From an uncultured Desulfospira sp. (lineage in GTDB: Bacteria > Desulfobacterota > Desulfobacteria > Desulfobacterales > Desulfobacteraceae), in NCBI GenBank assembly GCA_963663165.1, contig OY760175.1, forward strand, positions 1,376,001 to 1,440,000: 64,000 nt of DNA, read 5' to 3'. Of this stretch, positions 18,271-56,466 are shown piece by piece (within the stretch, counting starts at the first letter, position 1; every line of letters begins with the position of its first letter). The notes beneath the pieces are model-generated. The model saw nothing but the letters and a program-made list of their open reading frames with translations, had not been told where the DNA came from and searched no databases. The translations under genes were made by a program, and so were the position numbers.

Positions 18271-18446
18271 TATATATTGTCTTTCCCTGCCTTGTATTCC
18301 CATTCAAGTTTACCCATAGCCTTTAAATGATTTTCTACACCATAACGTTCCTTAAAATCAATGGGAGGTTTGGCGTACGAAGCCCGGAAACCGGAAAGGA
18401 TAAGCTGATTTAAAGCCCTTGACTTGAGATTACACCCAGAGACCGC

Positions 18447-21800: not shown

Positions 21801-23492
21801 GGTACCGTCCCGGTCCAGGGTGCCGAAATATTGAATTTCCCACTGATCTTCCAAACTGTCACAGTCGGTGTCGTCAACCGGGCATATTTCAACTGTGGCA
21901 GACCTTGATGTCTCTAAGGTTCCGTCCGATGCGGTAAAGGATAACTGATGCTGCCCTGCCTGGCCTTCCTCAGGGGTCCACTGGAACCGGCCGGTTCCAT
22001 CGCCAAGATCATTAAAAACCGCGCCATCAGGTATTTGATCTGCCGTCAGTACCGGCACAGTTCCATCAGGGTCACTGGCCTTGACAGTAATGGAAAGCAG
22101 CTGGTTTTCCACACCGGTATAGCTGGGAATATACTGCATTACCGGAGCTTGGGGGCTTGAATCAGGTTCCTCAAAAATAAACAAATAGGAAATGGCGGCA
22201 TCTGCATCAAACAAATTAACAAAATATTGCCACGAATCATTGTCATTTCTGATTTTCGATAACCAGACATTTTCTTCTTCAATAACTTTCCCGTCGGAGC
22301 GGATAACCTGCTGGATCTCCTTTTCCCCGTCAAAAGGATCTTTAAATTTTAAATATAAAAAGGCCTCAACAGACGGGACGGTTACAATATACACAGGGCT
22401 TGAGCCGTATTGCTCCAGGATCAGCGACCCGGAATAATCGGTTACATCAGAATCGGATCCCTCAGATTCGTACACCCGGACAGTGTCGTCATCCATGGCC
22501 AGAAAATCCAGCATCTCATCTGAGTCTGAAAGGTCTACCAACACCTCATGAAGAAGAAAATGGGTGGTCACATTCCCTATCAGGGTGATTAAACCGGCTC
22601 CGGATACCTTGGAACCGGAGAACTCTGAAACAAATTCAACAAACTGTCCGGACAGGCTGCTGGTCATTATCCATCGGGCCGTGGTGCATGCCCCGGATAA
22701 AATAGTGCCGAAATCGGCCAACAGGGACGGTGTTTCTTCCTGCCCATTCACACAGGTCCCCTGGATAATAAACTCAACTGCCATATCCTGGCCGCTTGAA
22801 GATATCCTGGGTTCGGCAGATTCGATTGTTAATTCATCGGCAGGCCCGGTACCGTTATTTTTTACCCGGACACCCAAGGAAAAAGGAACCGGTGCTTCAA
22901 TCTCGTCGGTCATTAAATCATCGCCGTAAACCTCTTTGGGAATAAAATAATCCAGGTCAAGCACAGCAGATGGTTTGACAAAAATAATCTGAGGGGTTGC
23001 GTTAATGGAAAAAGGCTCATCACCGACGGTACCCGTAACATTGGCACCCACATAGTAAAGGGTTCCGGCCTCCACTAAACCGGATGCGCCGGACAGGGGG
23101 GTTATAGACCAATCGACAGTTGCCTGTCTTGACGCAGAAACCACCCCCTCTCCCTGGATGTTTTCTATGTTCTCCATGCCGTCCATCTGAGTTAAAAACA
23201 GTATGCCGTCCGTATCTGAGTCTGATGAATAAATAAACTGCGTACCGGTTGCATCTTCAAAAGAAAGGGTAACCCTTATATTTTCTATATCCTCATCAGA
23301 AAGCCAGTTGCTGATTTCAACCTGCATGCTGAAAGGTGCCTGCTCCGCTGTCAGGGTTTGATTAATCTCAATTCCTATCTCTATTTTGGAATCTGCAGCA
23401 ACCACCACTGCATTGCCTTCCCAAATAGGAATCAGCATGCAGGCGATTGCCAGGGCAGTCCGGAATTTATTTTTGTTACATGCATCTAACAT
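18819..23492 (-). CDS. Giant acidic secreted/surface protein with Ig/FN3-like repeats, TSP3-like Ca-binding repeats and dockerin-like modules
   Basis: Hydrophobic N-terminus; repeated YYWRxR strands; DxDxDG repeats; two GDFDxDxDxDGxDL modules. Confidence 0.85.
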   Translation of the reverse strand: MLDACNKNKFRTALAIACMLIPIWEGNAVVVAADSKIEIGIEINQTLTAEQAPFSMQVEISNWLSDEDIENIRVTLSFEDATGTQFIYSSDSDTDGILFLTQMDGMENIENIQGEGVVSASRQATVDWSITPLSGASGLVEAGTLYYVGANVTGTVGDEPFSINATPQIIFVKPSAVLDLDYFIPKEVYGDDLMTDEIEAPVPFSLGVRVKNNGTGPADELTIESAEPRISSSGQDMAVEFIIQGTCVNGQEETPSLLADFGTILSGACTTARWIMTSSLSGQFVEFVSEFSGSKVSGAGLITLIGNVTTHFLLHEVLVDLSDSDEMLDFLAMDDDTVRVYESEGSDSDVTDYSGSLILEQYGSSPVYIVTVPSVEAFLYLKFKDPFDGEKEIQQVIRSDGKVIEEENVWLSKIRNDNDSWQYFVNLFDADAAISYLFIFEEPDSSPQAPVMQYIPSYTGVENQLLSITVKASDPDGTVPVLTADQIPDGAVFNDLGDGTGRFQWTPEEGQAGQHQLSFTASDGTLETSRSATVEICPVDDTDCDSLEDQWEIQYFGTLDRDGTGDYDEDGMSDSDEFLNGTAPDTINYAPHPPEVLLPLPGASVSVLSPDLSVYCSVEPGGKTITYAFELYEDQGFSRKITEQDGITASDHVALWALPVPLEENTTYYWRSRVFDGIAYSLWVHGAFFVNTANEPPLDHHPVFPENEGETGSLRPVLVSESSTDPDQDTLSYEFVLYADSQLVDPAASGTGTADMESFTVSWQVDTDLEDGAIYYWQVTTTDANGAASTGPVVSFTVNTANQQPEEPYLLYPAQDAEIQSTDLELSASVVDDPDGDEVSYEFQVDVSQTFDSSDLITSGEGDLEVSDDSVLWTVSNLNDDTLYYWRVRAGDGSSYSKWVYGRFFINSANEPPDQAVIQNPGHLSWIGHSNPTLSVHPGQDTDGESVRMAVAVYTDPEMEAPLINQTLADGFEFPIPLELENGKWYYWRARLMDNHGEYGDWSSVGAFFVLKDTYNNPPFIELATPDEDTTLTNESPASVMAIEWKDIDPDSDALISLYYDTDSQGQDGELIVGDISEDADGDQDSYEWDVSGLEEGTYYVYAQISDEETTCISYAQGSITWIPDVNHPPYPPSIPSPEDGAKNISVSVPISWQGGDSDPEDTVSYDILLGTDGSDMLTVETIESIESSILENLDFNTTYFWSIVSTDNDGLQASGPVWHFHTFAAMEDADGDGVTNAEEIELGTDPFEADTDQDGYDDCSEIRNGTSPLSQFSFPDFPLFGDFDSDQDADGKDLVRLVQSFGSVNGDAAFDPETDLVEDDIIDQKDLERFVSIFGMPWQSNHAPLVPYFPDPASGALQVSVLPTLSWEGGDRDSNDTLVYEILMATDSDNLEVFGTTSLSEFSILEKLDFGTTYYWRILSKDDSELQTLGAVWHFTTFSEDGDADRDGLSNQSEILYGTDPFDIDTDSDGFDDYTEITNGSDPLDGKSHPDIAPPFGDFDIDNDVDGADLVLMAGAFGSSSGDDAYFPQADFDNDGGIDETDMEMFIRLFGYKWSP

Positions 23493-23567: not shown

Positions 23568-24947
23568 GGGATGTGGTAAAATTAAAACCCACAATTCATT
23601 CCTCATAGCATGGAATATCAACAGCCCATTTTTCAATCCCTGGAATCCGAATAATTTTGTTTTCTATATTATTCACGGCGGACTTGACCAAACGTACCCC
23701 TGTCGGGTAAACACCTTTGATTAATTTGACGACAGGATTTTCTCCTTTCCATGTCATTGTTCGACATAGACCGAGAACCTTTTCAATTTTGTTCAGCAAT
23801 TCGCCTTTCCAATGATTTTCCAAAACACCCCAAACTCGCTCTATTGGGTTGTATTTACTGTGGTACGGGGGATAGTACACCAAACTAATATTTACAAATG
23901 CTGATTTGGCAAAGTCCACGAGGCGACTAATGAATTGGCTCCTTCGGCTACTATTTTCCGGCCCATTATCAAGATTGATCACCAGTGTATGTGGGGCGAA
24001 TCTTGCGTTCAAAGAAGGCCAGAGTGATTCCAGCGCATCAATCATGAAATCAGAGGTGATGTTGCTTTCAGTGAAGTACATATAATTTTCATCCAGAGCA
24101 GGTATGTTGATACCGAAAAGTTTCAAAAGGGAATCGGGTTTAAAATCATGGTCCGCCGCTTTAAGATTGCAACGACTATATCCGCCTCGGGAATAAGGCC
24201 CTATTTTAATAGTGGCTTTTGCGTCCATTGAGATACGTAAAACGCCATCTGTTTCATCGGCTAGTTGGTTTGTCCTATGCACATATTCAAAAATGATGTC
24301 TGTTTCAGGAATTTTTTTTTACCTTGGCTTTGGCGACCTTCTTCAGTTTAAAACCCAATTTATTCATTATGGTGGATAGAGTCCGTACTGTTGGCATATT
24401 CTCAGGGTCATATCCCATGTCGTCAACTAATCGACGGAATACTTCATTCGCAGATATTGGGGAATATAAATTCTGGGTACGGAATGTAGGATCAGTCTGA
24501 CATATAGGGTTTACAATACGAGTTATGTCCTCTTTTAAATTCGGAAAATGTTCTAAACACGATTTCCGGCCTCGTCCGGAAAAATTATCAACACAGGTAA
24601 CTCCGCTTTCTATTTCCCGTCGCCCTTTGATTATTGTTTTCCGATCCCAACCCAGTTCTCTTTCAGCCTTTAGTTGTCCGCCGTGCCCCATAAGGGAGAC
24701 AACGCGTGCCATGAATTGGCGCCGTTCATGGCCTTTTAATTTGCTTCGAGTGGTATTCAGAAAATCCTTTAGTGGTGGCGTTAATTCCGATATAGTTTTG
24801 GGTAAATTGTGCTTAGAATGATCAAACATGGTCCTCCTGTATTTTTTATGTAATCTTCCATGTTGACCATAAACTATCGATTCCATGTTGTCTATAGAAA
24901 TCAGAATTCAGACTATGGAATTGTGGATATTAATTTTTCTGAGGCCC
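23568..24947 (-). mobile_element. ISAzo13-family insertion sequence, copy 1
   Basis: Imperfect IRs GGGATGTGGTAAAATTAAAACCCACAATTC / GAATTGTGGATATTAATTTTTCTGAGGCCC; TTA target duplication. Confidence 0.92.
23596..24829 (-). CDS. ISAzo13-family transposase, two frames joined at an A9 run
   Basis: SMDAKA, DHDF, LDNGPEN, YPPYHSKYNPIERVWG; AGGAGG RBS before MFDHSK. Confidence 0.88.
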
Positions 24948-26923: not shown

Positions 26924-29146
26924 TTAGTCCTGTGGGCTTATAAAATTCATTTTCACAGAAATATCCTCGTGATTCTCTGTGGCCACCACTGCTTCCTGGA
27001 CAATAATGGATACGGTTTCCTGATCGGTCTGATCTCCATCACTTACAGAAAAGACAATACGGTGGATTCCAACCTGATCCTCTTTCGGCGTCCAGGAAAA
27101 AAGTCTTGTTTCCGAATTAAATGATGCCCCCTCCGGTAAATTCTCAGCAGAAAAAACCAGCGTATCATACCGGTCACGATCATCGGCCTGAATTTTAAAT
27201 TGAATCAATTCTTCTGCAAGGACACGTTTTGCGCCGATGCCGTTCATTTTGGGAGAAAAGTTGTCTTGGCCTGGTGTAGCTGTTCTAAAATTCTGCTCAT
27301 AATATTCATTTTCATTTCCGGATGCATCCGTGCTGCTCACATGAATTTCAAACCTTTGAATACTTGAAATTTCAGGTAAATTTTCGAGCTTGGCCACATG
27401 GTTTCTTGTTAGGCTAAGATCAATATATTCAGCGTCAGTTCCAGCCGCATATTCAATTTTATAGGCAATTTCTGTTGTTGACAGTTCATCCGTATACCAG
27501 TTAATTGTTGCACTGTTCTCTGATATTTCTGTGACATGGACATCAGTAATGAGTGGTATTTGATTATCTTCACCTGAAGGTGTTTTCACAACAAGAATAT
27601 TGCTTTCAGCACTGCGTTGATCCAATGAATCCCAGGCGATAACTTTATATTCGTAATAACCGTTCGGATTAACACGCTCATCTGAGTAAGACGTTTCTAT
27701 ACTCATATCGATTGGCCATCCGTTTCTGAAAATAACATATCCGGCAAGGTGGTTATCGTCAGACGCAGGGTCCCAGAGGAGAGAAACGCAATCGGATGCA
27801 ATTCTTTCTGCTTTTAGATTTTGAGGCGAAGACGGTGGTTCCATATCCTGCCGGTAATAATTTTCTACAACCAAAAATACATGAATAATCGGTTTTCCCG
27901 GGGAAAAAAGGCCATCCACTTCAGGTTCTGAAACATATAAAATATGCTGCTCATCATCAAATGCCATACCGCCTATACCGGTAAATCGCTGGGTATGATG
28001 GCCGACTCTCTCTATGGAATTAAACATATAGTCATGAAGGTTGAAAACGGCATAAGGCTGAATCTCGTTTGAAGTTAAATCGCCTTGTATTACTTTTGAA
28101 AACAACACCGGATCATAAAACAGCATGGCCGCATAATCCGGATTGGAGTGATATCCTTTTGAACCGTGATCATCAGGCTGCAGGTCGCCATAAGTTTCCA
28201 TTCCGCTTGCAGCGGTCCTGAACCCTTTTGAACCGCCGATGATAATGGCCTGCTTAAAATCAGAAGTCGCCCATACGCCGTCATTCAATTCATCTCTATA
28301 ACTAAAATTAGCAACCGTATAGGGTTTTTCGTATTTCAAAAGTTTTATGGCATTCATGGAACTGCCACTGCGCGGAGATGCCTCTGCGGCCCATGGCTTG
28401 ACCGCATAGAGTGTGGGTCCCAAACTCCCGCCACGGGATCTTCCTGCCACCATGGTATGCCCGTTGATGTAATTTTTTGAAAATTGTTCAGGGATTTTAA
28501 AAAGATACCGGCTGGTGGCATTGGATGCAACATTTCCCAAGTTCCAGACACCCTGGGAGTTTAATTGGGAGAAATCCAGTTCACAGGAGCCAAAGGTCAG
28601 TTCATCATCCGGCGGACAATAATAATTATACATAACCCAGTACAATTTATTCTGCTTTGGCTCGTCTTGGATTTGAACGACTTGAATGTCAGATAATGTC
28701 GGCGTTGTAAGTCCTGAAGACTGCCTACCGCCGGTTATTTCCACAAACCCTTGTAATGTTGTTGCAACCGGCAATTCATCGATATTTTTAGTGGGAGAAA
28801 CAACCGGCTTGGGGATAGAGAATTCTGAAATCATGCTCTTATTTGTTTTTCCATGACTTATCAAAGATCCTGGGAACCCGTCCTGATCACCTGCTGGATC
28901 CCCGTCAGCCCTGAAAGTCATGCCCCTGCCCCCCCCATTCCATTTGGTATCACCGGAAGTTTCGTCTGGCAGTCTGAAAGCACCTAAATAAACAAAATCA
29001 GACGTTGGATTTATCAATCCCAGTTTATCTTCATTGTTATTCGGGGAGGATACTGAAAAATTTATATCCACGCCCTGGGCCGCTAAAGGAGAAACACCGA
29101 TTAAAACACTGATGGCTATTATTAAAATATAAATGACCATTTTCAT
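26924..29146 (-). CDS. Secreted protein with FN3 and Ig-like domains
   Basis: Signal peptide; PPSSPQNL...LWDPASDD...GYVIFRNG (FN3); LPEGASFNSETRLFSWTP (Ig-like). Confidence 0.8.
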   Translation of the reverse strand: MKMVIYILIIAISVLIGVSPLAAQGVDINFSVSSPNNNEDKLGLINPTSDFVYLGAFRLPDETSGDTKWNGGGRGMTFRADGDPAGDQDGFPGSLISHGKTNKSMISEFSIPKPVVSPTKNIDELPVATTLQGFVEITGGRQSSGLTTPTLSDIQVVQIQDEPKQNKLYWVMYNYYCPPDDELTFGSCELDFSQLNSQGVWNLGNVASNATSRYLFKIPEQFSKNYINGHTMVAGRSRGGSLGPTLYAVKPWAAEASPRSGSSMNAIKLLKYEKPYTVANFSYRDELNDGVWATSDFKQAIIIGGSKGFRTAASGMETYGDLQPDDHGSKGYHSNPDYAAMLFYDPVLFSKVIQGDLTSNEIQPYAVFNLHDYMFNSIERVGHHTQRFTGIGGMAFDDEQHILYVSEPEVDGLFSPGKPIIHVFLVVENYYRQDMEPPSSPQNLKAERIASDCVSLLWDPASDDNHLAGYVIFRNGWPIDMSIETSYSDERVNPNGYYEYKVIAWDSLDQRSAESNILVVKTPSGEDNQIPLITDVHVTEISENSATINWYTDELSTTEIAYKIEYAAGTDAEYIDLSLTRNHVAKLENLPEISSIQRFEIHVSSTDASGNENEYYEQNFRTATPGQDNFSPKMNGIGAKRVLAEELIQFKIQADDRDRYDTLVFSAENLPEGASFNSETRLFSWTPKEDQVGIHRIVFSVSDGDQTDQETVSIIVQEAVVATENHEDISVKMNFISPQD

Positions 29147-29213: not shown

Positions 29214-32201
29214 TTAATTAAAATCCCTGCTACGGGCTTTCAACAATGGCTGAAAACCATTACATTCCGGCACACATGAGCTAACATTTGGCGCTGGGGA
29301 AGCATGGCCTGAATCCGGAATCTGTGTGATATCAAACTTTGGTAAAGATATCTCAACAATGGATCTTTTATAAAGGGGGGAATATTTGGAAATGGACTCC
29401 CCAAGGATACATCTCATCTTCCATAAATCTATTGGGCCAATGGCATTAAACCGGATTGTTCCGGCGTCGGAAAATGAATTTTTAACCACAGTACTTTCTG
29501 CCTCAAGAATATCCATAAGCCACATCCTGATGCAATCCTGGGGAATATTAAAAATCATTTTCAAGATTGACAAATACTCCACATCCTGCTGCCCCCTGCG
29601 AAACGCCTTCAATCTGACAGACGGAATTGGACCATTTTCATCCGGGTAGAATAAGGAAGTTGCTTTCCCCTGAATCCATGTATTTTCATCCCCAATGGTC
29701 TGCCAGGGCAATACCCCGGTTGCTCCGTTGGACCACGCAAAAAGGCTCCATAGAACCGGCTGCAAGTTAGAATCATTAATGGCATTCGCGGTCCCATATT
29801 CAGCAAAATAAGATTTATAATACAGGGACTCATCTTTTTTCATTCTCAATTTCTGAGCATTATTCCCGCCAATATATTCTATATCAACAACGCCTTTGAG
29901 CAGGTCCCGTTCATACTGGCTATAGGAAATATCTCCCCGATACCAGACTTTTGCATCCCCTTTCACAGGCTCAACCGCGGATTTCCACAACAGCCCGAAC
30001 CAGCGAAGCGCCCAGAAGTCCTGGGTATTCATGGGCTCATCAAACAGCCATGGCGCAGAACTCTTATTATCTTTTTTCCGGTAATATATTTTATTGTTAA
30101 GGTAAAATTGGAAATTGGTATTAAACCATTTTTTTTCATTAAGATGAGAGACAAAAAGGGCAAAGGCGGTTTGCAGTTTCTCTGAATATTCCGGTTCAAA
30201 TGCCTCATCTGCCCAATAAGAAGGCCGATAATATTGAAACAGATTTACAGGCCAGTTTTCATTAAAGGGAAGATACATGACATCAACCGGTTCTCCCTTC
30301 CTGGGCAAGTCGTTAAACGCTGAACCGTCCAACAGAGGGGCTGCCATCTCGTCCCAGTGACGCCATTCAAACCGGTCTCCTTTCCACAAAGGAGCAAACG
30401 AAGGGATGCCGTCCCATCCATAGGGTAGCCTGTTTAGGCAGGTACGGTGTTCATGGGCCAAACGATAATATTCATATCCTTTGAAAGGCAAAAAGGTGTC
30501 ATACGTATTCATCTCAGGAACAAATGAAAGTTTGTTTGGAAGGGTAAAGTCCCACACCGTCAAATCGACATCCAGCGCCAGGATATTATTTTCCGATCGA
30601 ACGACAACCATACCCTTTTTTAAGCCTGGTGCTATATCATGTGGGATATAGACTTCCAGTATTAAAGAATGGTTCATCTGCCCCTCTACTCTTGTTTTAC
30701 CGGCTGTTGATGGAATGGAAAAACTCCCCGATGAAGGGATCAGAGGATCCGGGAGTACAGCAAATTTATTGTCTTTATGGTCGATTGTTTTTACATACCC
30801 AAACTCGTATAGCCGTGTGTTTAAATTTGCCTTATCCTTGAATTCGTATGTAACGGATATATTATCACTGTCCCCCTCAACATTGAGCTGAAAGGAGACA
30901 TGTTCATTTTTTGCGCCATAAAGCCGGACCCTTTTTTGTTTCCCGGAAAAAATATGATTTCCACTTTTATAGCCCTTGACTTGAACCGGTATCATCCGGC
31001 CTGATACAGGATCAATTTTATCCAGCACATCAACAACACAAACCTTAAGATTCCCAAGAGCCGGAAGAACCGTATTGGGGGAAAAGGTCTGAACAGCTAC
31101 AGCAGGAAGGCTTATTGGTTTTGGCCCTGATGACAGTTTGATCTTTTGCCTAAAAGGCTTGCTTATATTCCCTGCACCGTCAACGGAACGAATCTGCAAC
31201 GCTATGGTTTGACCGGGAGCAAAGGGCAAATCCTGAATATGCATTTTAACAGGCGCGCCATACTCTTTTGCCATGGGAATTAAATATCTTGGAACTTCTT
31301 TTTTGCCCCCTTCATGCAAATAGTTTACAAAAAAACCGATAGTGCTACTACCGCCGGCATCCCTGGGAGTATTCCAGGAAACCACTGCTTCACCGGCAGG
31401 GAGGCCATTTGTTTCGGTCCTTAACGCCGATACAGGTTCGGGCGGTTCGAAATCTTCGCCATCTGTCCAAATTTCAATCCAGGGGGCATTTTTTTTCTTC
31501 TCTTTGCTGTAGCAAAAGCGGTTAGGAAAATATGAGTATTTAAACTCTCCATTTTTCAATGACCAGATATTCCCAACCTCGTCAAACACACAAAACCCAT
31601 GACTGATTCCGGCAACCCTGGCAGAGACTACCTTTGGGTCAACGGCACAGGTCTGCCAGCCGGAGAAATCAGGCAAGGAGCTTTCCGCAAACCTCCATAT
31701 TGTATTCCCCCGGCCAAAAACAGCATCCAGTATTGTGCTTCCAGGGTATGCCCAATCTTTTTCCAAATATTTTGCCTGAATAAAACAAGAACTTCCTTGT
31801 TGGGGATGATATTTTTTCGAAGTTCCTTCGCCCCATTCACCGGCCAGACTTGAAACCCCCAACCGGGAGAAAGGCAACCCACCAGACGACAAAGACCTAA
31901 AGTGAAGCAACGCTCCGGTTATGATCTTTCCTTTTAGCGGCACAGCATCAATATCTATAAGAATAAACTCCTGCTGCCCCTTCAGCTTTAGCTTTCCTGC
32001 CCCTCCGTTATTGCTGTTTCGTTCTCCTTTTGCGCCGGAGACCCATGTATCCCTTGTAACTTTATACTGTTCACTTTTGCCTTCGGGCGGCCAGAAACGC
32101 TCCTTTCTCAAATTTTCAGCAAAAGAAATAGATTGTGTCAAAAATAAAAAAAGCCCACACAGGGCTAAAAATAAAAACAATTTGTTTCGGTAAACAACCA
32201 T
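29214..32201 (-). CDS. Secreted protein with a DUF4091/glycoside hydrolase-like C-terminal region
   Basis: Signal peptide; VWDFTLP, DEP, PSVRLKAFRRGQQDVEYL motifs. Confidence 0.7.
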   Translation of the reverse strand: MVVYRNKLFLFLALCGLFLFLTQSISFAENLRKERFWPPEGKSEQYKVTRDTWVSGAKGERNSNNGGAGKLKLKGQQEFILIDIDAVPLKGKIITGALLHFRSLSSGGLPFSRLGVSSLAGEWGEGTSKKYHPQQGSSCFIQAKYLEKDWAYPGSTILDAVFGRGNTIWRFAESSLPDFSGWQTCAVDPKVVSARVAGISHGFCVFDEVGNIWSLKNGEFKYSYFPNRFCYSKEKKKNAPWIEIWTDGEDFEPPEPVSALRTETNGLPAGEAVVSWNTPRDAGGSSTIGFFVNYLHEGGKKEVPRYLIPMAKEYGAPVKMHIQDLPFAPGQTIALQIRSVDGAGNISKPFRQKIKLSSGPKPISLPAVAVQTFSPNTVLPALGNLKVCVVDVLDKIDPVSGRMIPVQVKGYKSGNHIFSGKQKRVRLYGAKNEHVSFQLNVEGDSDNISVTYEFKDKANLNTRLYEFGYVKTIDHKDNKFAVLPDPLIPSSGSFSIPSTAGKTRVEGQMNHSLILEVYIPHDIAPGLKKGMVVVRSENNILALDVDLTVWDFTLPNKLSFVPEMNTYDTFLPFKGYEYYRLAHEHRTCLNRLPYGWDGIPSFAPLWKGDRFEWRHWDEMAAPLLDGSAFNDLPRKGEPVDVMYLPFNENWPVNLFQYYRPSYWADEAFEPEYSEKLQTAFALFVSHLNEKKWFNTNFQFYLNNKIYYRKKDNKSSAPWLFDEPMNTQDFWALRWFGLLWKSAVEPVKGDAKVWYRGDISYSQYERDLLKGVVDIEYIGGNNAQKLRMKKDESLYYKSYFAEYGTANAINDSNLQPVLWSLFAWSNGATGVLPWQTIGDENTWIQGKATSLFYPDENGPIPSVRLKAFRRGQQDVEYLSILKMIFNIPQDCIRMWLMDILEAESTVVKNSFSDAGTIRFNAIGPIDLWKMRCILGESISKYSPLYKRSIVEISLPKFDITQIPDSGHASPAPNVSSCVPECNGFQPLLKARSRDFN

Positions 32202-38670: not shown

Positions 38671-40051
38671 GGGATGTGGTAAAATTAAAACCCACAATTC
38701 ATTCCTCATAGCATGGAATATCAACAGCCCATTTTTCAATCCCTGGAATCCGAATAATTTTGTTTTCTATATTATTCACGGCGGACTTGACCAAACGTAC
38801 CCCTGTCGGGTAAACACCTTTGATTAATTTGACGACAGGATTTTCTCCTTTCCATGTCATTGTTCGACATAGACCGAGAACCTTTTCAATTTTGTTCAGC
38901 AATTCGCCTTTCCAATGATTTTCCAAAACACCCCAAACTCGCTCTATTGGGTTGTATTTACTGTGGTACGGGGGATAGTACACCAAACTAATATTTACAA
39001 ATGCTGATTTGGCAAAGTCCACGAGGCGACTAATGAATTGGCTCCTTCGGCTACTATTTTCCGGCCCATTATCAAGATTGATCACCAGTGTATGTGGGGC
39101 GAATCTTGCGTTCAAAGAAGGCCAGAGTGATTCCAGCGCATCAATCATGAAATCAGAGGTGATGTTGCTTTCAGTGAAGTACATATAATTTTCATCCAGA
39201 GCAGGTATGTTGATACCGAAAAGTTTCAAAAGGGAATCGGGTTTAAAATCATGGTCCGCCGCTTTAAGATTGCAACGACTATATCCGCCTCGGGAATAAG
39301 GCCCTATTTTAATAGTGGCTTTTGCGTCCATTGAGATACGTAAAACGCCATCTGTTTCATCGGCTAGTTGGTTTGTCCTATGCACATATTCAAAAATGAT
39401 GTCTGTTTCAGGAATTTTTTTTTTACCTTGGCTTTGGCGACCTTCTTCAGTTTAAAACCCAATTTATTCATTATGGTGGATAGAGTCCGTACTGTTGGCA
39501 TATTCTCAGGGTCATATCCCATGTCGTCAACTAATCGACGGAATACTTCATTCGCAGATATTGGGGAATATAAATTCTGGGTACGGAATGTAGGATCAGT
39601 CTGACATATAGGGTTTACAATACGAGTTATGTCCTCTTTTAAATTCGGAAAATGTTCTAAACACGATTTCCGGCCTCGTCCGGAAAAATTATCAACACAG
39701 GTAACTCCGCTTTCTATTTCCCGTCGCCCTTTGATTATTGTTTTCCGATCCCAACCCAGTTCTCTTTCAGCCTTTAGTTGTCCGCCGTGCCCCATAAGGG
39801 AGACAACGCGTGCCATGAATTGGCGCCGTTCATGGCCTTTTAATTTGCTTCGAGTGGTATTCAGAAAATCCTTTAGTGGTGGCGTTAATTCCGATATAGT
39901 TTTGGGTAAATTGTGCTTAGAATGATCAAACATGGTCCTCCTGTATTTTTTATGTAATCTTCCATGTTGACCATAAACTATCGATTCCATGTTGTCTATA
40001 GAAATCAGAATTCAGACTATGGAATTGTGGATATTAATTTTTCTGAGGCCC
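38671..40051 (-). mobile_element. ISAzo13-family insertion sequence, copy 2
   Basis: Same ends as copy 1; TTA target duplication; A10 at the frameshift run. Confidence 0.92.
38699..39933 (-). CDS. ISAzo13-family transposase, two frames joined at an A10 run
   Basis: Same protein as copy 1 apart from the length of the A run. Confidence 0.88.
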
Positions 40052-40676: not shown

Positions 40677-42055
40677 GGGATGTGGTAAAATTAAAACCCA
40701 CAATTCATTCCTCATAGCATGGAATATCAACAGCCCATTTTTCAATCCCTGGAATCCGAATAATTTTGTTTTCTATATTATTCACGACGGACTTGACCAA
40801 ACGTACCCCTGTCGGGTAAACACCTTTGATTAATTTGACGACAGGATTTTCTCCTTTCCATGTCATTGTTCGACATAGACCGAGAACCTTTTCAATTTTG
40901 TTCAGCAATTCGCCTTTCCAATGATTTTCCAAAACACCCCAAACTCGCTCTATTGGGTTGTATTTACTGTGGTACGGGGGATAGTACACCAAACTAATAT
41001 TTACAAATGCTGATTTGGCAAAGTCCACGAGGCGACTAATGAATTGGCTCCTTCGGCTACTATTTTCCGGCCCATTATCAAGATTGATCACCAGTGTATG
41101 TGGGGCGAATCTTGCGTTCAAAGAAGGCCAGAGTGATTCCAGCGCATCAATCATGAAATCAGAGGTGATGTTGCTTTCAGTGAAGTACATATAATTTTCA
41201 TCCAGAGCAGGTATGTTGATACCGAAAAGTTTCAAAAGGGAATCGGGTTTAAAATCATGGTCCGCCGCTTTAAGATTGCAACGACTATATCCGCCTCGGG
41301 AATAAGGCCCTATTTTAATAGTGGCTTTTGCGTCCATTGAGATACGTAAAACGCCATCTGTTTCATCGGCTAGTTGGTTTGTCCTATGCACATATTCAAA
41401 AATGATGTCTGTTTCAGGAATTTTTTTTTACCTTGGCTTTGGCGACCTTCTTCAGTTTAAAACCCAATTTATTCATTATGGTGGATAGAGTCCGTACTGT
41501 TGGCATATTCTCAGGGTCATATCCCATGTCGTCAACTAATCGACGGAATACTTCATTCGCAGATATTGGGGAATATAAATTCTGGGTACGGAATGTAGGA
41601 TCAGTCTGACATATAGGGTTTACAATACGAGTTATGTCCTCTTTTAAATTCGGAAAATGTTCTAAACACGATTTCCGGCCTCGTCCGGAAAAATTATCAA
41701 CACAGGTAACTCCGCTTTCTATTTCCCGTCGCCCTTTGATTATTGTTTTCCGATCCCAACCCAGTTCTCTTTCAGCCTTTAGTTGTCCGCCGTGCCCCAT
41801 AAGGGAGACAACGCGTGCCATGAATTGGCGCCGTTCATGGCCTTTTAATTTGCTTCGAGTGGTATTCAGAAAATCCTTTAGTGGTGGCGTTAATTCCGAT
41901 ATAGTTTTGGGTAAATTGTGCTTAGAATGATCAAACATGGTCCTCCTGTATTTTTATGTAATCTTCCATGTTGACCATAAACTATCGATTCCATGTTGTC
42001 TATAGAAATCAGAATTCAGACTATGGAATTGTGGATATTAATTTTTCTGAGGCCC
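40677..42055 (-). mobile_element. ISAzo13-family insertion sequence, copy 3 (nested)
   Basis: Same ends; TCA target duplication; one Ala-to-Val change and a 1-bp shorter T run upstream of the RBS. Confidence 0.92.
40705..41938 (-). CDS. ISAzo13-family transposase, two frames joined at an A9 run
   Basis: As copy 1. Confidence 0.88.
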
Positions 42056-52407: not shown

Positions 52408-53853
52408 TCATGATTTTAAACTCAACCAAATCCTTTTGATATCGGAATAAGTTTTTCTTGAAAAAAAATAAAAATACCCAGTGTAAATAAATATGCCTGT
52501 TGATATATGAACAATTAGAGCCATTAAGGTACTATTGTTTTGAAAAACCGTCCATTTGACAAGGCCGATCACCATCACCATCAAGCAAGAGGCGATCAGT
52601 GCATGACGAATTCTTTTTACGGATTCAAAAAGACTAGCCTGAATATCTTTAAGTACATGATAACAAAGATAAGAAAAAAGAAAGGGATAAACCGATATCC
52701 AACTGACTGCCATCCCGGTCAAACCGAACCGGGATAGAATCCAGAAGCTTAACGGCATAAAAATGGCGGAATAAACGGAAAACATAAATACAGCTTTTGT
52801 ATTCCCCCTTGCTTTAAGCATTACCAGAAGTATTCCTTTAAAAGACAATAAAATACCCAAAAAACAAAATATTTTGAATGCAAAGAGGCTAGGGAGCCAT
52901 TTAGAAGAAAGAACAACAATGATAATATCTTCTGAAATGGCAAACATTCCCAGAAAAACAGGAAAACAGAACAAAGAAATTAAATAAATAACCATATAGT
53001 AATACTTAAGAAAATCTTCTCGATTGTCCTGTAATTTTGAAAAAAGGGGGAAAACGACTCCCTGGATAATAAATACGCCTTTGTCAACCGGCATCCGGGA
53101 AAGACTGAGTGCTACCGAATAATACCCAAGAATTGTCTGTCCCAGAAGTCTTCCGATCAAAATAACATCCATTCTGCTGCTGAAATAATCCAGCACATAA
53201 TGAGCCGTCACGGGAAGGCCGTATTTCAGCATTTGTCCAGCGCTGGAAAATGAGAATTCAAACCTGGGCAGCCATCTTTTATAAACAAGGATTAATAGCA
53301 TCAAAGTAAAGTCTTTGGCGACCTCTCCAATTATCAAACTCCATACCCCCCATCCCCTCAAGGCCAGGACAAGGCTGATCAATATATTCGTTACTCCTGA
53401 AGCCATTTCGCAAAAAGATCTTTTTTTGAATTCAAAATCCCTGGCCATCAGCCGGTTAGGGATTTCTTTTATGCTCAGAAACAGCAGGCTGACACCGATA
53501 ACCCTTACAGCAGGAATAAGTTCCGGGGCAGAGAAAAAATCAGCCCAGGCAATCGCCGCAAACCAGGTAATAGCATATAAAGCGACAGCAAAAGAAGTGC
53601 AAATCCAAAATGCAGTATAAATATCGGCTTCACTAAGGTTTTTTTTCTGAAGCACGGCTTCACCAATACTCATATCGAAAAAAATCGTGACGAAAAATTT
53701 ATACGCCAGGACCATCCCCATTAAACCGTAATCATCCGGAGACAGTATCCTGATCAGTACTAGGGTGACGCTCCAAGCCAAAATCTGTCCGGCAGTCCTG
53801 GCCAGGCCAACCCAAAAAACACTTTTTACCGCCTGTTGTTCTAAATTCATCAA
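52408..53853 (-). CDS. Wzx-type polysaccharide flippase
   Basis: RILSPDDYGL, GWGVWSL, LGYYSVA, VFPLFSK, LSSKW; many TM helices. Confidence 0.9.
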   Translation of the reverse strand: MMNLEQQAVKSVFWVGLARTAGQILAWSVTLVLIRILSPDDYGLMGMVLAYKFFVTIFFDMSIGEAVLQKKNLSEADIYTAFWICTSFAVALYAITWFAAIAWADFFSAPELIPAVRVIGVSLLFLSIKEIPNRLMARDFEFKKRSFCEMASGVTNILISLVLALRGWGVWSLIIGEVAKDFTLMLLILVYKRWLPRFEFSFSSAGQMLKYGLPVTAHYVLDYFSSRMDVILIGRLLGQTILGYYSVALSLSRMPVDKGVFIIQGVVFPLFSKLQDNREDFLKYYYMVIYLISLFCFPVFLGMFAISEDIIIVVLSSKWLPSLFAFKIFCFLGILLSFKGILLVMLKARGNTKAVFMFSVYSAIFMPLSFWILSRFGLTGMAVSWISVYPFLFSYLCYHVLKDIQASLFESVKRIRHALIASCLMVMVIGLVKWTVFQNNSTLMALIVHISTGIFIYTGYFYFFSRKTYSDIKRIWLSLKS

Positions 53854-54902
53854 TGCAATTCCTGTAATGTGCGCAGCTTTCTCAAACCGGTAATCGCCTG
53901 TTTAAAAATTGGGGCCCGGTAATAATTCAAATGATAAATTTCCCGGATGTCCACAGCCCACTGCTGCATACGCTGGGTGGCTTTTCCATAGTACTCAATG
54001 GACGAGACCCCTGGGGTATTGAAAAGATGTTTATGCACTTCATAATACATCAGCATTCCAGGTGAATAGTCTTTTTCTGTTTCATCATAAGCGATTTTCA
54101 GTATGACGACCATTCCATCACCCTGTATGGTCAAAGCAGACGCTACCACTTTTTCACCAAATCTTAGTTGATAAATCCGGGCGCACTTTCGGATAGCAAA
54201 CCGGCTCAACATGTCTACATAAAACCGTCCTCTGTGATTGTTTTTATTAACCGCAGTTCCGGCTTTTCCTTTCCATCCGGTGGACTCCAACTTCCCATAA
54301 TCCTCAACACCGGCCTGCATCTCTTCCGGATCAGTTAGCACATGAAATGACCAGTTAATATTGTTCGTGCTTAACCGGTTCTTTTTTTTTGTGATATTCC
54401 GCTTTAAATTTTTACTTCTATCCTGCCAGTAATCTTCAAAGGACCTGTCAATAGGAATCCTTATGGTATCAATAAATTTAATTTTTTCCTGGACCTTCCC
54501 TCTATGATTTGTTGCAACTGTTAGATAATCAGTATCCAGCTTATAGAATGCGAAAAGGCAGACATAGCCGGGAAGAGATCTCATTAAAGATAAAATAGAA
54601 GAATCGGCTGTCCCCTGCTCTGTGTTTTTAATCAATGCGAATGTAAATGGGCCTGTTTTTGGAAAAAAGGTTTCCCAAACCCCAACCCGTTTTTGCTTTA
54701 ATAAGACCATCCCATCACAGCCTTCTTCCCCTTTTAACGCCAGATGCAACCCAGATGGAGCAAAATATTTTATTATCTGCCCTACATAATCAACGTGCAT
54801 TAACGGGTGTTCACAACATAGAATATCTTTCCCTAATTGTTGCCAGTTGGTATTGTAAGTATCAAAAGCAGTGGCATCTTTTATAATCCATTTATCAGTC
54901 AT
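53850..54902 (-). CDS. GNAT family acetyltransferase (CelD/BcsL-like)
   Basis: SFEDYW..RSKNLKR, LESTGWKG, AYDE..KDYSPG. Confidence 0.82.
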   Translation of the reverse strand: MTDKWIIKDATAFDTYNTNWQQLGKDILCCEHPLMHVDYVGQIIKYFAPSGLHLALKGEEGCDGMVLLKQKRVGVWETFFPKTGPFTFALIKNTEQGTADSSILSLMRSLPGYVCLFAFYKLDTDYLTVATNHRGKVQEKIKFIDTIRIPIDRSFEDYWQDRSKNLKRNITKKKNRLSTNNINWSFHVLTDPEEMQAGVEDYGKLESTGWKGKAGTAVNKNNHRGRFYVDMLSRFAIRKCARIYQLRFGEKVVASALTIQGDGMVVILKIAYDETEKDYSPGMLMYYEVHKHLFNTPGVSSIEYYGKATQRMQQWAVDIREIYHLNYYRAPIFKQAITGLRKLRTLQELH

Positions 54903-54919
54903 ATTACTCCAGAATATAA

Positions 54920-55438
54920 TCAGTGCTTTTTTCCAAGGCTATCGACGTAATGAACTTTCCCATCACTGCCCATGTATTGAAATCCCACATCTCTCATCAC
55001 CGAGTAACCTGTATATATGGCCTTAACATTTTTTACTCCGGCCTTTATCCACTCGAGGGCAACCTGCCCACTTTTCTCTTCAGCACCTCAACCGCAAAAA
55101 ACGAGAATGTGTTTATTTTTAACCGCTTTTAATTTTTTTAAAAGCTTGGGATTCATTTCCTGTCCCATAGGAACTGTAACCGATCCGATAACCTTATATC
55201 TCTTATTCATATCCTCCCCCACACCAAAAAGAATGGCCTGCCCTGCGGAAAACAAGCCAAAGGCCTCTTGGGCCGCCACTCTTGGTACGGTGGGGTATAG
55301 AATTTCTGCATCTCTAGGCTCCATTTGCAGCAACCGTAGAAATGAGGGATGAATTTTACCCGTCTTTTTGCTATTTCCTGAGGCTCCTATTGGTAAAAAC
55401 AATACCATTAAGGCCATAAATATAATTATTTTTTTCAT
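54920..55438 (-). CDS. Secreted rhodanese-like selenoprotein (Sec at the in-frame TGA, codon 117)
   Basis: ILVFCG-TGA-GAEEKSGQVALEWIKAGVKNVKAIYTGY continues the rhodanese fold; SECIS-like hairpin follows; the read-through ORF ends 17 bp before the next gene. Confidence 0.8.
55057..55069 (-). promoter_or_regulatory. Candidate bacterial SECIS apical hairpin
   Basis: GGGCA-GGT-TGCCC, starting 18 nt after the UGA, with a G-first loop. Confidence 0.65.
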
Positions 55439-55470
55439 ATCCCCCCCCTCCATGTGGGCAGAAAATTGTT

Positions 55471-56466
55471 TCAATAAGACCCAACGGATAGACTATACGG
55501 TTCCCAATAAAAATCCTGTAACCGGACAACGCCCTGGAAGCATCTTGGAATTTGGAAAAGATTGGATGTATGGTCGGAAGGGCCTATTTCTGTGGTGACC
55601 GAACATTCGAATGAAAGCTTTTTTAAAATTTCAATTGTATCTTTGTTATACATATCCTTTTTGCCGAAAGGGTATGCAAACGTGGTCATTTTTCTGCCGA
55701 TTTTATCTTCAATCAACGTTTTTGAGGCTGCTATTTCTTCTTGGGCCTTTGAATAAGGCAGTCGGCTTAAAACCGGATGACTAATTGTATGGGCACCAAA
55801 TTCAATATTATTATCGGCCATCTCTTTGATTTCATCCCAGGTCATCATGATATTATCAAGGCCGCTGAAATCATCAATTTCAAGACAATCTTCCAGTTTT
55901 GATATGTACTCAAGCCGCTCATTATTCTCGGCGTTTTGCAGATGATTCATTATTATTGAAGAACCTGTTTTTCTCTCATCTCTGGAATGCAATGACAAAT
56001 GAAATGATTGCTCTCCCAATTTGATATCCAGTATCTCTTTTTTAGTCATCATGAACATATACCGGAATTTGATAAACCAGGGAGGAAGGCCATCTTCAAT
56101 ACGGCCGGCCAAAAGAAAAATGGTTGCCGGGACATTATACTTTTTCAGTACAGGGTAAGCATTGACATAATTATCCTTAAACCCGTCATCAAAAGTAATT
56201 ACCACACACCCCTTCAATGATTCGTTGTTTTTAATCCTTCTGACATACTCTGTCAGCGAAATGATATTATAATTTGCAGCCAAATGAGCGATGTGAATTT
56301 CAAAATCAGTTTTCGAAACCTCGGCGTAAAAGCCGGTTGGCGTATCAGGGATCATGTGATACATCAAAATGTAACAGCGATTTTTTAAAGCATTCAAGCG
56401 ATAAAATTTCAGCTGGAACAACCCTTTTTTTATGACTTCCTTTGAGTTTGTTTTAAAATTTGGCAT
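55471..56466 (-). CDS. Polysaccharide deacetylase family protein
   Basis: ILMYH, ITFDDG, GAHTISH, FAYPFG. Confidence 0.92.
   Translation of the reverse strand: MPNFKTNSKEVIKKGLFQLKFYRLNALKNRCYILMYHMIPDTPTGFYAEVSKTDFEIHIAHLAANYNIISLTEYVRRIKNNESLKGCVVITFDDGFKDNYVNAYPVLKKYNVPATIFLLAGRIEDGLPPWFIKFRYMFMMTKKEILDIKLGEQSFHLSLHSRDERKTGSSIIMNHLQNAENNERLEYISKLEDCLEIDDFSGLDNIMMTWDEIKEMADNNIEFGAHTISHPVLSRLPYSKAQEEIAASKTLIEDKIGRKMTTFAYPFGKKDMYNKDTIEILKKLSFECSVTTEIGPSDHTSNLFQIPRCFQGVVRLQDFYWEPYSLSVGSY

What the first reader, a model, noticed from the sequence alone, without database searches (positions are those of the whole stretch)
54920..55438. Hidden selenoprotein: secreted rhodanese-like protein with a CxU motif inside the EPS operon
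Seen: the ORF track stops at TGA 55088-55090, right at the rhodanese active-site loop (ILVFCG*). The frame continues 55 codons with the expected second half (EEKSGQVA..WIKAGVKNVKAIYTGY) and ends 17 bp before the next gene, closing a 185-bp gap. A GGGCA-GGT-TGCCC hairpin follows the UGA at SECIS-like distance, and the N-terminus looks like a signal peptide. Established: bacterial Sec insertion uses UGA plus an adjacent 3' SECIS, and rhodanese-related selenoproteins occur in deltaproteobacteria. Inference: a Sec-dependent periplasmic sulfur-transfer or redox function tied to EPS biosynthesis, which is an unexpected context.
Basis: partly seen in the sequence, partly recalled or inferred. Interest (0 to 1): 0.75.

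Follow-up and report, generated by a model that had tools for sequence, protein, structure and literature searches.

The report
Exported rhodanese-like selenoprotein gene, CxU motif
A small gene inside a polysaccharide-synthesis cluster only looks cut short: its internal TGA almost certainly codes for selenocysteine, which makes it a divergent, so far unannotated member of a known group of rhodanese-like selenoproteins.

Summary
On the minus strand an ORF (ATG 55438) stops at TGA 55090-55088 after ...HILVFCG. The frame then stays open for 55 codons, to TGA 54922-54920, 17 nt before the next gene. The TGA and the downstream frame are kept in a Desulfospira MAG (L001). There the 55 downstream codons show 15 synonymous and 6 non-synonymous differences (dN/dS 0.08). 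In a library-wide search, 21 of 41 fetched relatives end exactly one residue after the conserved Cys. Twelve of 14 other full-length relatives have Cys at the TGA column. With TGA read as Cys, AlphaFold gives a confident rhodanese fold (pLDDT 92.8) that needs the downstream part. Cys115 sits at the canonical catalytic position and Sec117 at +2 in the loop. A conserved GC hairpin with a GGU loop lies 23 nt after the UGA and resembles the apex of the E. coli fdhF SECIS. CxU rhodanese-like selenoproteins are already catalogued (form 3, NF041203). This protein scores far below that model's cut-off, and the relatives whose annotation I saw are truncated and unnamed or 'hypothetical'. Not verified: the Sec machinery (none in the window) and any functional tie to the polysaccharide cluster.

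The parts
54920..55438 (-). Complete selenoprotein gene: 172 codons plus the stop, with codon 117 = UGA (Sec). The true stop is TGA at 54922-54920.
   Evidence: The start at 55438 is supported by the GGAGG upstream, by relatives that begin MKK, and by a 1-nt indel in L001 that puts the upstream ATG out of frame.
55088..55090 (-). In-frame UGA, proposed Sec117.
   Evidence: It is conserved as TGA in L001. 21 of 41 fetched relatives end here. Cys stands here in 12 of 14 other full-length relatives.
55094..55096 (-). TGC codon of Cys115, the canonical rhodanese catalytic position.
   Evidence: It is nearly invariant in alignment A5. It aligns with the loop Cys of PDB rhodanese domains. It is the first residue after strand 110-114 in the model.
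55055..55071 (-). SECIS-like hairpin. The core GGGCA-GGU-UGCCC is at 55069-55057, flanked by a U.U mismatch and a G-C pair.
   Evidence: It is identical in L001, although the codons on either side changed.
54923..55087 (-). The 55 codons after the UGA. They encode helix 121-132, strand 138-141 and helix 145-151 of the rhodanese fold, plus a C-terminal tail.
   Evidence: dN/dS is 0.083, and differences by codon position are 2/4/19. There are 15 synonymous and 6 non-synonymous codon differences. pLDDT is 95 or higher here. P0019 and P0051 are fragments of this part from other genomes.
55379..55438 (-). Predicted Sec-type signal peptide (residues 1-20, likely cleaved after GAS).
   Evidence: simple hydrophobicity and charge rule; 36 of 38 relatives alike. 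The cleavage site is inferred.
55441..55451 (-). Ribosome-binding site: GGAGG followed by a G run. GGAGG ends 8 nt before the ATG.
   Evidence: Read directly from the sequence.
55471..56466 (-). Upstream neighbour in the same direction: a polysaccharide deacetylase. Its stop lies 32 nt before the selenoprotein start.
   Evidence: Pfam PF01522, E 4e-29. It is 96% identical to its L001 counterpart.
53850..54902 (-). Downstream neighbour in the same direction: an Acetyltransf_6 (GNAT, FemAB-like) protein that starts 17 nt after the selenoprotein stop.
   Evidence: Pfam PF13480, E 8e-20. It is only 22% identical to the L001 counterpart.

Best explanation
**What it is.** The gene at 54920-55438 (minus strand) encodes a 172-residue precursor of an exported, single-domain rhodanese-like selenoprotein.

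**How the UGA is read.** UGA-117 is read as selenocysteine by the usual bacterial route: SelB with Sec-tRNA binds a hairpin in the coding sequence just 3' of the UGA. Here that hairpin is the GC-rich stem with a GGU loop 23 nt downstream.

**The protein.** After removal of a Sec-type signal peptide (about residues 1-20), the mature protein has two parts. The first is a conserved N-terminal extension (IHPSF...PR...VPR). The second is a rhodanese fold whose active-site loop reads C115-G-U117-G-A-E120. Cys115 occupies the canonical catalytic place. Sec117 sits two residues on, in the same loop, and an invariant Glu closes the loop.

**Inferred chemistry.** The Cys/Sec pair forms and resolves a selenenylsulfide, or carries a persulfide or polysulfide sulfur. 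That would make it an extracytoplasmic redox or sulfur-relay protein rather than a classical thiosulfate sulfurtransferase, because the loop is acidic, not basic.

**Context and classification.** It is co-transcribed with a polysaccharide (PEP-CTERM/exosortase-type) biosynthesis cluster. Whether it acts on that pathway is not known. By domain and motif it falls in the catalogued CxU group of rhodanese-like selenoproteins. It is a divergent subfamily whose members whose annotation I saw are truncated and unnamed or 'hypothetical'.

**Shown:** the conserved UGA, selection on the downstream frame, the fold, and Cys at the homologous position. **Inferred:** Sec insertion itself, export, the chemistry and the role.
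For: **1. Selection on the read-through frame.**
- In L001 (Desulfospira sp. MAG, 94% DNA identity) the TGA is kept and the frame stays open to a stop at the same codon, TAA there.
- The 55 downstream codons have dN/dS 0.083. Differences fall 2/4/19 on codon positions 1/2/3, and the other two frames are full of stops.
- There are 15 synonymous and 6 non-synonymous codon differences; Fisher p is about 1e-7 to 1e-8.

**2. No separate start.** The first in-frame ATG/GTG/TTG after the TGA in the window is codon 147. Residues 118-146 therefore cannot come from a separate start.

**3. Relatives.** The exhaustive HMMER search gave 47 hits. I fetched 41 and left out six long multi-domain proteins.
- 21 end exactly at [FY]-C-x, one residue after the conserved Cys. 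P0003 does the same.
- 12 full-length relatives have Cys at the TGA column.
- P0019 is a 47-residue fragment 66-67% identical to the downstream part.
- Glu120 is present in all 16 full-length rows, read from the alignment.

**4. Fold.** AlphaFold2 on alignment A5 gave mean pLDDT 92.8 and pTM 0.80, with the blocks after residue 117 at 95 or higher. The secondary structure runs strand 110-114, loop 115-120, helix 121-132.

**5. Structure and profile matches.**
- Foldseek against the PDB gave 26 matches with E <= 0.001. The top 12 ranks are rhodanese-like domains or a protein of unknown function (2hhg, 8w14, 6mxv, 3nhv, 6bev).
- The A5 profile matched 6mxv at E 1.5e-23, with Cys115 aligned to the loop Cys.

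**6. Hairpin.**
- It is identical in L001 although the codons on both sides changed.
- It is in the top 3% of TGA-following hairpins in the window.
- Its apex GCAGGU-UGC resembles the fdhF SECIS apex GCAGGUCUGC read from E. coli K-12.

**7. Genetic code.** TGA is an ordinary stop in this organism: 14 of 45 ORFs of 150 aa or more end in TGA, and this gene's own end is TGA.

**8. Literature.**
- CxU rhodanese-like selenoproteins are catalogued as form 3, NF041203 (PMC13188914 table passages; PMC9312934 passages).
- Rhodanese-related selenoproteins are abundant in deltaproteobacterial symbionts (PMC1976440 passages).
- Thermodesulfobacteriota are among the phyla richest in selenoproteins (PMC13188914 passage).

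**9. Export.** 36 of 38 relatives have a signal-peptide-like N-terminus, and 7 have a lipobox-like motif, mostly among the CxC relatives.
Against: - **Sec machinery not seen.** The window has no selA, selB or selD among the ORFs scanned (17 against Pfam, 30 against NCBIfam, 4 in both) and no tRNA at all. This is 64 kb of a contig of about 6.7 Mb, so it says little. The machinery stays unverified.
- **Rfam.** No Rfam family matches the region; only two chance hits with E >= 7.
- **Folding energy.** The folded 51-64 nt after the UGA are no more stable than shuffles: z 0.07 and -0.09. The proven fdhF SECIS gives the same result, z 0.10.
- **No covariation.** Only two nearly identical DNA sequences of the hairpin were available, so there is no covariation evidence.
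- **Family cut-offs missed.** Pfam Rhodanese is below its cut-off (17.6 vs 22.2 bits). NF041203 is far below (24.1 vs 115).
- **Trp at the column.** Two full-length relatives (P0028, P0038) have Trp, not Cys, at the column.
- **EPS link untested beyond one genus.** The only other locus with DNA is a close relative, so the polysaccharide context could not be tested across the family.
- **Model limits.** The spatial relation of Cys115, Sec117 and the N-terminal extension is inferred from secondary structure only.
Confidence: 0.85

Rival explanations
1. The TGA is a true stop. The gene makes a 116-residue protein, and the downstream 55 codons are either a separate small gene or untranslated.
For: Gene callers predict it this way in every database entry seen: 109-117-residue proteins. 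Separate small ORFs are annotated for the tail: P0019 (47 aa) and P0051 (51 aa). In L001 a K122M change creates an in-frame ATG at codon 122.
Against: In the window the first in-frame start after the TGA is codon 147. Yet codons 118-146 are conserved and belong to the active-site loop and helix 121-132. Full-length Cys relatives are single polypeptides. A 116-residue product would end inside the active-site loop and lack two helices and a strand of the fold.
Confidence: 0.04
2. It is a pseudogene. A nonsense mutation, or a sequencing error, hit a former Cys codon (TGC or TGT to TGA).
For: Cys is the residue at this column in 12 relatives, and TGA is one step from TGC or TGT.
Against: An independent assembly has the same TGA. 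Downstream dN/dS is 0.083, the same as upstream at 0.090. 21 mutually distant cluster representatives are truncated at the same column.
Confidence: 0.02
3. The UGA is read through, but not as selenocysteine. It might be read as Trp or Cys by near-cognate decoding or a suppressor, in an organism that lacks the Sec trait.
For: The Sec machinery was not seen. Two relatives carry Trp at the column.
Against: TGA works as a normal stop in the same window, and in this same gene. A conserved hairpin sits at SECIS distance. The column is Cys in most full-length relatives, the classic Sec/Cys pair. The phylum is among those richest in selenoproteins (PMC13188914 passage). The CxU rhodanese type is a catalogued selenoprotein.
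Confidence: 0.05
4. It is a selenoprotein, but the Cys-x-Sec...Glu site binds a soft metal (Cu, Hg, Cd) in the periplasm rather than relaying sulfur or electrons.
For: The site has two adjacent soft ligands plus an invariant Glu in an acidic loop, and lacks the Arg or Lys typical of anion-binding sulfurtransferase loops (read from the alignment). Metal-binding selenoproteins with adjacent Cys and Sec are listed in the PMC13188914 table (MbdU, HgcA).
Against: No metal-resistance or transport genes stand beside it. The fold and the place of Cys115 are those of catalytic rhodanese domains.
Confidence: 0.12

Closest known systems
Rhodanese-like domain-containing selenoprotein form 3 (NCBIfam NF041203 'rhodanese_LYCAU', CxU). 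[quoted passage not shown] The PMC13188914 table cites its reference 13, Zhang and Gladyshev 2005, for it.
   Same: - Rhodanese fold.
- Sec two residues after the loop Cys (CxU).
- Cys-for-Sec homologues exist.
- The best NCBIfam hit of the window protein is this model.
- Its CxC relatives score 41-94 bits on the model.
- Function unknown in both.
   Different: - It scores 24.1 bits against a cut-off of 115, and only residues 104-146 align.
- It has an added N-terminal extension with near-invariant H30, P31, P41, R42, P49, P52 and R53.
- It has a plain signal peptide where several CxC relatives have a lipobox-like motif.
- The motif is VFCGU, not LYCAU.
- It lies in a polysaccharide cluster.
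UxU variant of the rhodanese-related sulfurtransferase selenoproteins in Olavius algarvensis delta symbionts (PMC1976440, passages)
   Same: Same general family and bacterial group. Four relatives found here (P0017, P0021, P0027, P0035) end two residues earlier, right before the Cys column, as a UxU or UxC form would.
   Different: The window gene has Cys, not Sec, at the first position. I had no DNA for those four relatives, so the UxU reading is an inference.
E. coli fdhF SECIS element (read from NC_000913.3)
   Same: - A hairpin inside the coding sequence just 3' of the UGA.
- The apex GCA-GGU(C)-UGC.
- An unpaired U one step below the upper stem.
- Neither is more stable than shuffled sequence (z about 0.1 in both).
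   Different: - The loop GG starts 23 nt after the UGA here, against 18 nt in fdhF.
- The loop has 3 (or 5) nt instead of 4.
- The lower stem is weak or absent.
- SelB binding is untested.
Single-domain exported rhodaneses such as PspE and the Wolinella Sud protein (2jtq and 1qxn among the PDB hits). That they are periplasmic is recalled, not tested here.
   Same: A small rhodanese domain outside the cytoplasm with one catalytic Cys. A sulfur-carrier role is a plausible analogue.
   Different: Those have no Sec, no second redox residue in the loop and no acidic loop. The profile E-values are only 1.8e-5 and 9.3e-6.

Membership tests
Bacterial selenoprotein gene (UGA recoded as Sec) | An in-frame UGA followed by a conserved frame that is under selection. 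| tested here: met
   TGA kept in L001, dN/dS 0.083 downstream, 15 synonymous vs 6 non-synonymous differences.
Bacterial selenoprotein gene (UGA recoded as Sec) | Homologues with Cys at the UGA column (Sec/Cys pair). | tested here: met
   Cys in 12 of 14 other full-length relatives, Trp in 2.
Bacterial selenoprotein gene (UGA recoded as Sec) | A SECIS stem-loop just downstream, with a small G-containing apical loop. | tested here: inconclusive
   The hairpin is present, conserved in L001, in the top 3% of the window and similar to the fdhF apex. There is no covariation data and no Rfam match.
Bacterial selenoprotein gene (UGA recoded as Sec) | selA, selB, selC and selD in the same genome. | not testable with these tools
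   None are in the 64-kb window.
Bacterial selenoprotein gene (UGA recoded as Sec) | Selenium found in the protein. | not testable with these tools
   Needs 75Se labelling or mass spectrometry.
Rhodanese homology domain (Pfam PF00581) | Score at or above the Pfam gathering cut-off. | tested here: not met
   17.6 bits against 22.2, E 0.0055.
Rhodanese homology domain (Pfam PF00581) | Rhodanese alpha/beta fold. | tested here: met
   Model pLDDT 92.8. Foldseek's top 12 ranks are rhodanese-like domains or a protein of unknown function, with TM by target up to 0.66 among them. The family profile matches 6mxv at 1.5e-23.
Rhodanese homology domain (Pfam PF00581) | Catalytic Cys as the first residue of the loop between the central strand and the following helix. 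| tested here: met
   Cys115 follows strand 110-114, and the helix starts at 121. It aligns with the loop Cys of 6mxv and 3tp9.
NCBIfam NF041203 rhodanese_LYCAU (selenoprotein form 3) | Score at or above the curated cut-off of 115 bits. | tested here: not met
   24.1 bits for the window, 22.9 for L001, 21.6 for P0009.
NCBIfam NF041203 rhodanese_LYCAU (selenoprotein form 3) | A C-x-U motif in the rhodanese loop. | tested here: met
   C115-G-U117.
NCBIfam NF045521 rhoda_near_glyco | Score at or above the curated cut-off of 145 bits. | tested here: not met
   17.7 bits for the window and 24.1 for L001.
Sec-dependent signal peptide (exported protein) | A basic n-region, a hydrophobic h-region and small residues at -3 and -1. 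| tested here: inconclusive
   The simple rule is met, and is shared by 36 of 38 relatives. No trained predictor was available and there is no experiment.

The most novel reading that the evidence does not exclude
This gene would be the first recognisable member of an unannotated, almost always Sec-containing, exported rhodanese subfamily with the signature IHPSF...PR...VPR plus C-x-U-x-x-E. The subfamily would occur in Desulfobacterales and at least one Acidobacteria MAG. Its job would be tied to the polysaccharide or PEP-CTERM matrix locus it sits in, for example a selenium-dependent redox or sulfur-transfer step in making or modifying the biofilm matrix. That would be a new role for selenoproteins.
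Probability: 0.12. Interest if true: 0.6.

Novelty: new member of a known kind. Interest (0 to 1): 0.35.

Why it matters
It corrects an annotation error that recurs in public data. The gene, and the relatives whose annotation I saw, are filed as roughly 110-residue unnamed or 'hypothetical' proteins. In fact they are most likely full-length selenoproteins.

It adds a divergent, exported, mostly Sec-containing branch to the CxU rhodanese group, whose function is still unknown.

It gives that group a testable setting: a cultivable-type sulfate reducer and a defined operon.

If the operon link were functional, it would connect selenium to polysaccharide or matrix biosynthesis. No paper in the searched library makes that connection.

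Tried and rejected
- **Rfam** scan of 54800-55500 at E <= 10: only two chance hits (IRES_Tobamo, flavi_FSE) and no SECIS model match.
- **Whole-stretch folding:** z-scores near 0. I dropped this as a criterion because the proven fdhF SECIS behaves the same way.
- **The search for related loci** with 30- and 5-row alignments failed for lack of a conserved 7-10-column stretch. The 4-row alignment worked but returned only one locus.
- **Word-index protein searches** were insensitive. They gave 2 hits, 1 hit for the 55-residue tail and 13 for the profile.
- **tblastn against plasmids:** no match.
- **The protein-atlas search** does not take a protein read under a changed code; I did not pursue it.
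- **Scan for other UGA read-through candidates in the window:** 10 candidates. The others were read as antisense ORFs or neighbouring genes that share a frame, judged from coordinates alone; none were examined further.
- **Literature:** no paper holds both Desulfospira and selenocysteine. Nine hold Desulfospira and 'selen...'. I opened one of them, PMC11887813, and its match was an author's name. Three papers hold rhodanese and PEP-CTERM; I saw the listing only, and the titles look incidental. None holds rhodanese, selenoprotein, signal peptide and exopolysaccharide together.
- **Terminator reading of the hairpin:** the + strand scan lists it as terminator-like, but no + strand gene ends there.

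Full report
**What is in the sequence**

The feature lies on the minus strand.
- An ORF starts at ATG 55438, with GGAGG ending 8 nt upstream. It runs 116 codons to ...NKHILVFCG and meets TGA at 55090-55088.
- The same frame continues for 55 sense codons to a second TGA at 54922-54920. The next gene starts at 54902.
- The hairpin GGGCA-GGU-UGCCC is at 55069-55057. Its loop starts 23 nt after the UGA, and its energy is -7.4 kcal/mol.

Each feature alone is only mildly unusual.
- 6.1% of the 5770 stop-to-stop intervals in the window are 55 codons or longer.
- 76 of 2555 TGA triplets (3.0%) are followed by an equal or better hairpin under the same rule.
- The hairpin sequence occurs once in the window.

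**Is the downstream part translated in this frame?**

It is 94% identical in DNA across the gene.
- It has TGA at the same codon and keeps the frame open to the same end, with TAA there.
- Upstream of the TGA, dN/dS is 0.090; downstream it is 0.083.
- Downstream differences fall 2, 4 and 19 times on codon positions 1, 2 and 3. The other two frames carry several stops in both genomes.
- Codon by codon, there are 15 synonymous and 6 non-synonymous differences (Fisher p about 1e-7 to 1e-8).
- In the window, the first possible in-frame start after the TGA is codon 147. A separate small gene therefore cannot explain the conservation of codons 118-146.
- TGA is otherwise a normal stop here: 14 of 45 ORFs of 150 aa or more end in TGA, as does this gene.

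**Relatives**

The exhaustive HMMER search with the read-through protein (Cys in place of Sec) gave 47 hits at E <= 0.001. I fetched 41 and left out six long multi-domain proteins: P0016, P0020, P0023, P0026, P0040 and P0044. The representatives are at most about 50% identical to one another.

| Group | Count | Members or note |
|---|---|---|
| End at [FY]-C-x, exactly one residue after the conserved Cys | 21 | P0003 (78% identical) does the same |
| End two residues earlier, just before the Cys column | 4 | P0017, P0021, P0027, P0035 |
| Full length with Cys at the TGA column | 12 | e.g. YCHCDGEQ, YCSCGAEQTS |
| Full length with Trp at the TGA column | 2 | P0028, P0038 |
| Fragment of the downstream part | 1 | P0019, 47 residues, 66-67% identical |
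| Diverges near the end | 1 | P0029 |

- A truncation that recurs at one column in mutually distant proteins, paired with Cys in the full-length ones, is the classic signature of a Sec/Cys family.
- The four shorter proteins fit the UxU variant described for rhodanese-related selenoproteins of Olavius symbionts (PMC1976440, passages). Without their DNA this is an inference.
- A profile search of the larger, word-indexed collection gave 13 hits. All are 109-116 residues long and cover at most 67% of the query. The only name given by a source is 'hypothetical protein', for P0031 from an Acidobacteria MAG.

**Fold and active site**

Sequence models are weak on this protein.
- Pfam Rhodanese scores 17.6 bits against a cut-off of 22.2.
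- NF041203 'rhodanese_LYCAU, rhodanese-related (seleno)protein' scores 24.1 against 115.
- NF045521 'rhoda_near_glyco' scores 17.7 against 145.

The structure prediction is clear.
- AlphaFold2 on the 39-row alignment A5 gave mean pLDDT 92.8 and pTM 0.80, with every 10-residue block after position 117 at 95 or higher.
- Foldseek against the PDB gave 26 matches with E <= 0.001. The top 12 ranks are rhodanese-like domains or a protein of unknown function (2hhg, 8w14, 6mxv, 3nhv, 6bev).
- The A5 profile matches 6mxv at E 1.5e-23.

In the model, strand 110-114 (HILVF) is followed by the loop C115-G-U117-G-A-E120 and then helix 121-132.
- Cys115 therefore holds the canonical catalytic place, as in the HMMER alignments to 6mxv and 3tp9.
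- Sec117 is at loop position +2.
- Glu120 is present in all 16 full-length rows of A5 (read).
- The 116-residue product would end inside the active-site loop and would lack two helices and a strand.
- I had no model coordinates, so distances between Cys115, Sec117 and the conserved N-terminal extension (H30, P31, P41, R42, P49, P52, R53) were not measured.

**SECIS**

- The hairpin is identical in L001, although the codons on both sides changed (K122M, E129K).
- For a tool-based comparison I read the fdhF SECIS from E. coli K-12. Its apex is GCA-GGUC-UGC, with an unpaired U below the upper stem, and its loop starts 18 nt after the UGA.
- The window has GCA-GGU-UGC, with a U.U mismatch below the stem, and its loop starts 23 nt after the UGA.
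- Neither element is more stable than shuffled sequence: z 0.10 for fdhF and -0.09 for the window. The missing z-score therefore does not count against it.
- Rfam gave no relevant match.
- With two near-identical sequences there is no covariation test.

**Export**

- The N-terminus has the layout of a Sec-type signal peptide: MKK, twelve hydrophobic residues, then PIGAS|GN.
- 36 of 38 aligned relatives share a basic-plus-hydrophobic start. The two exceptions look N-terminally incomplete.
- Seven relatives have a lipobox-like motif before a Cys, mostly among the more distant CxC relatives.
- No trained predictor was available.

**Context**

The gene sits in a one-directional run of genes. In order of transcription on the minus strand they are:
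- GT2, GT2, GT4, hexapeptide transferase, GT4
- a 912-residue PcRGLX-like protein
- polysaccharide deacetylase
- **this gene**
- an Acetyltransf_6 protein, a Wzx-type flippase, a DegT aminotransferase, a Wzy-like protein and an asparagine-synthase-type amidotransferase

Related markers and signals:
- NCBIfam gives sub-threshold similarity to the XrtA/PEP-CTERM amidotransferase. Elsewhere in the window it finds a PEP-CTERM protein (PepA type, above cut-off) and a PEP-CTERM/exosortase acyltransferase (above cut-off).
- The gaps to the neighbours are 32 and 17 nt. Neither the promoter-like nor the terminator-like sites found fall in these two gaps.
- L001 has the same order upstream.
- The deacetylase is 96% identical between the two genomes and this gene 94%. 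The next two genes are only 22% and 53% identical.
- dS inside the gene rises from 0.21 before the UGA to 0.82 after it.

The gene therefore lies at the edge between a conserved and a variable block of the locus. Whether it works with the polysaccharide pathway is not shown.

**Comparison with what is known**

- A 2026 review table lists five forms of rhodanese-like selenoproteins. Form 3 is NF041203 with a CxU motif (PMC13188914, passages).
- An earlier review calls it 'COG0607 form 2 (CxU)' and notes that most predicted selenoproteins have no known function (PMC9312934, passages).
- The CxC relatives found here score 41-94 bits on NF041203. The window protein, L001 and the Cys form P0009 score 22-24 bits.
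- By the field's domain-plus-motif criterion, this is a member of the CxU rhodanese kind. By the curated model, it is outside the equivalog.
- I file it as a new, divergent member of a known kind.

**What stays open**

- The Sec machinery of the genome.
- The DNA and neighbourhoods of the distant relatives.
- The nature of the two Trp forms.
- The chemistry of the Cys/Sec/Glu site.
- Any role in polysaccharide synthesis.

Supplementary tables of the selenoproteome papers were not opened. They may already list members of this subfamily.

Noticed in passing
window 23596-24886, 38699-39990, 40705-41938 (minus strand): There are three near-identical copies of an ISAzo13-family transposase gene (1382/1382 and 1322/1323 aligned bases identical). 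Each is split into two ORFs in different frames at a run of nine A (GGTAAAAAAAAATTCC). That looks like a programmed slippage site rather than decay. One pair of copies differs by a 1-nt indel somewhere.
   Followed up: partly
window 54923-55087 and neighbours; L001 6584-9303: The selenoprotein gene sits at the border of a conserved and a variable block of the polysaccharide locus. dS is 0.21 before the UGA and 0.82 after it. The upstream deacetylase is 96% identical to L001, while the downstream acyltransferase is 22% and the flippase 53% identical. A recombination end-point near the 3' end of the gene is likely.
   Followed up: partly
relatives P0017, P0021, P0027, P0035 (no window coordinates): Four relatives end two residues earlier than the others, just before the conserved Cys column. 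A form with Sec in place of Cys115 (UxU or UxC) would end there. No DNA was available to check.
   Followed up: no
relatives P0028, P0038: Two full-length relatives read C-Y-W where the others have C-x-C or C-x-U. The Trp may be a real TGG, or a TGA translated by a gene caller that used a code in which TGA is Trp. This was not testable without DNA.
   Followed up: no
L001 6364-6366 (codon 122): In L001 the K122M change creates an in-frame ATG five codons after the UGA. This explains why a 51-residue ORF (P0051) is annotated there for the tail of the gene.
   Followed up: yes
window 15994-18303 (minus strand): A 769-residue ORF joins a cysteine synthase (CysK/CysM type, residues 12-306) to a cysteine--tRNA ligase (residues 313-767) in one frame.
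   Followed up: no
window 1791-2720, 6990-9005, 11992-12747: Markers of a PEP-CTERM/exosortase system lie far from the glycosyltransferase block: a PepA-type PEP-CTERM protein and an exosortase-system acyltransferase, both above cut-off. Next to them is a 671-residue ThiF-like adenylyltransferase fused to an FMN-oxidoreductase-like part (PRK14851, 1072.7 bits against a cut-off of 1170).
   Followed up: no
window 18819-23492, 26924-29146, 29214-32201 (minus strand): Three large ORFs (1557, 740 and 995 residues) have no NCBIfam match at E <= 1e-10.
   Followed up: no
window 55234-55259 (minus strand): A terminator-like hairpin (11 pairs, then TTCTTTTTGG) lies inside the coding part of the selenoprotein gene. 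The region has 2 such sites, against 1.1 +/- 1.1 in shuffles, so this is probably chance.
   Followed up: no
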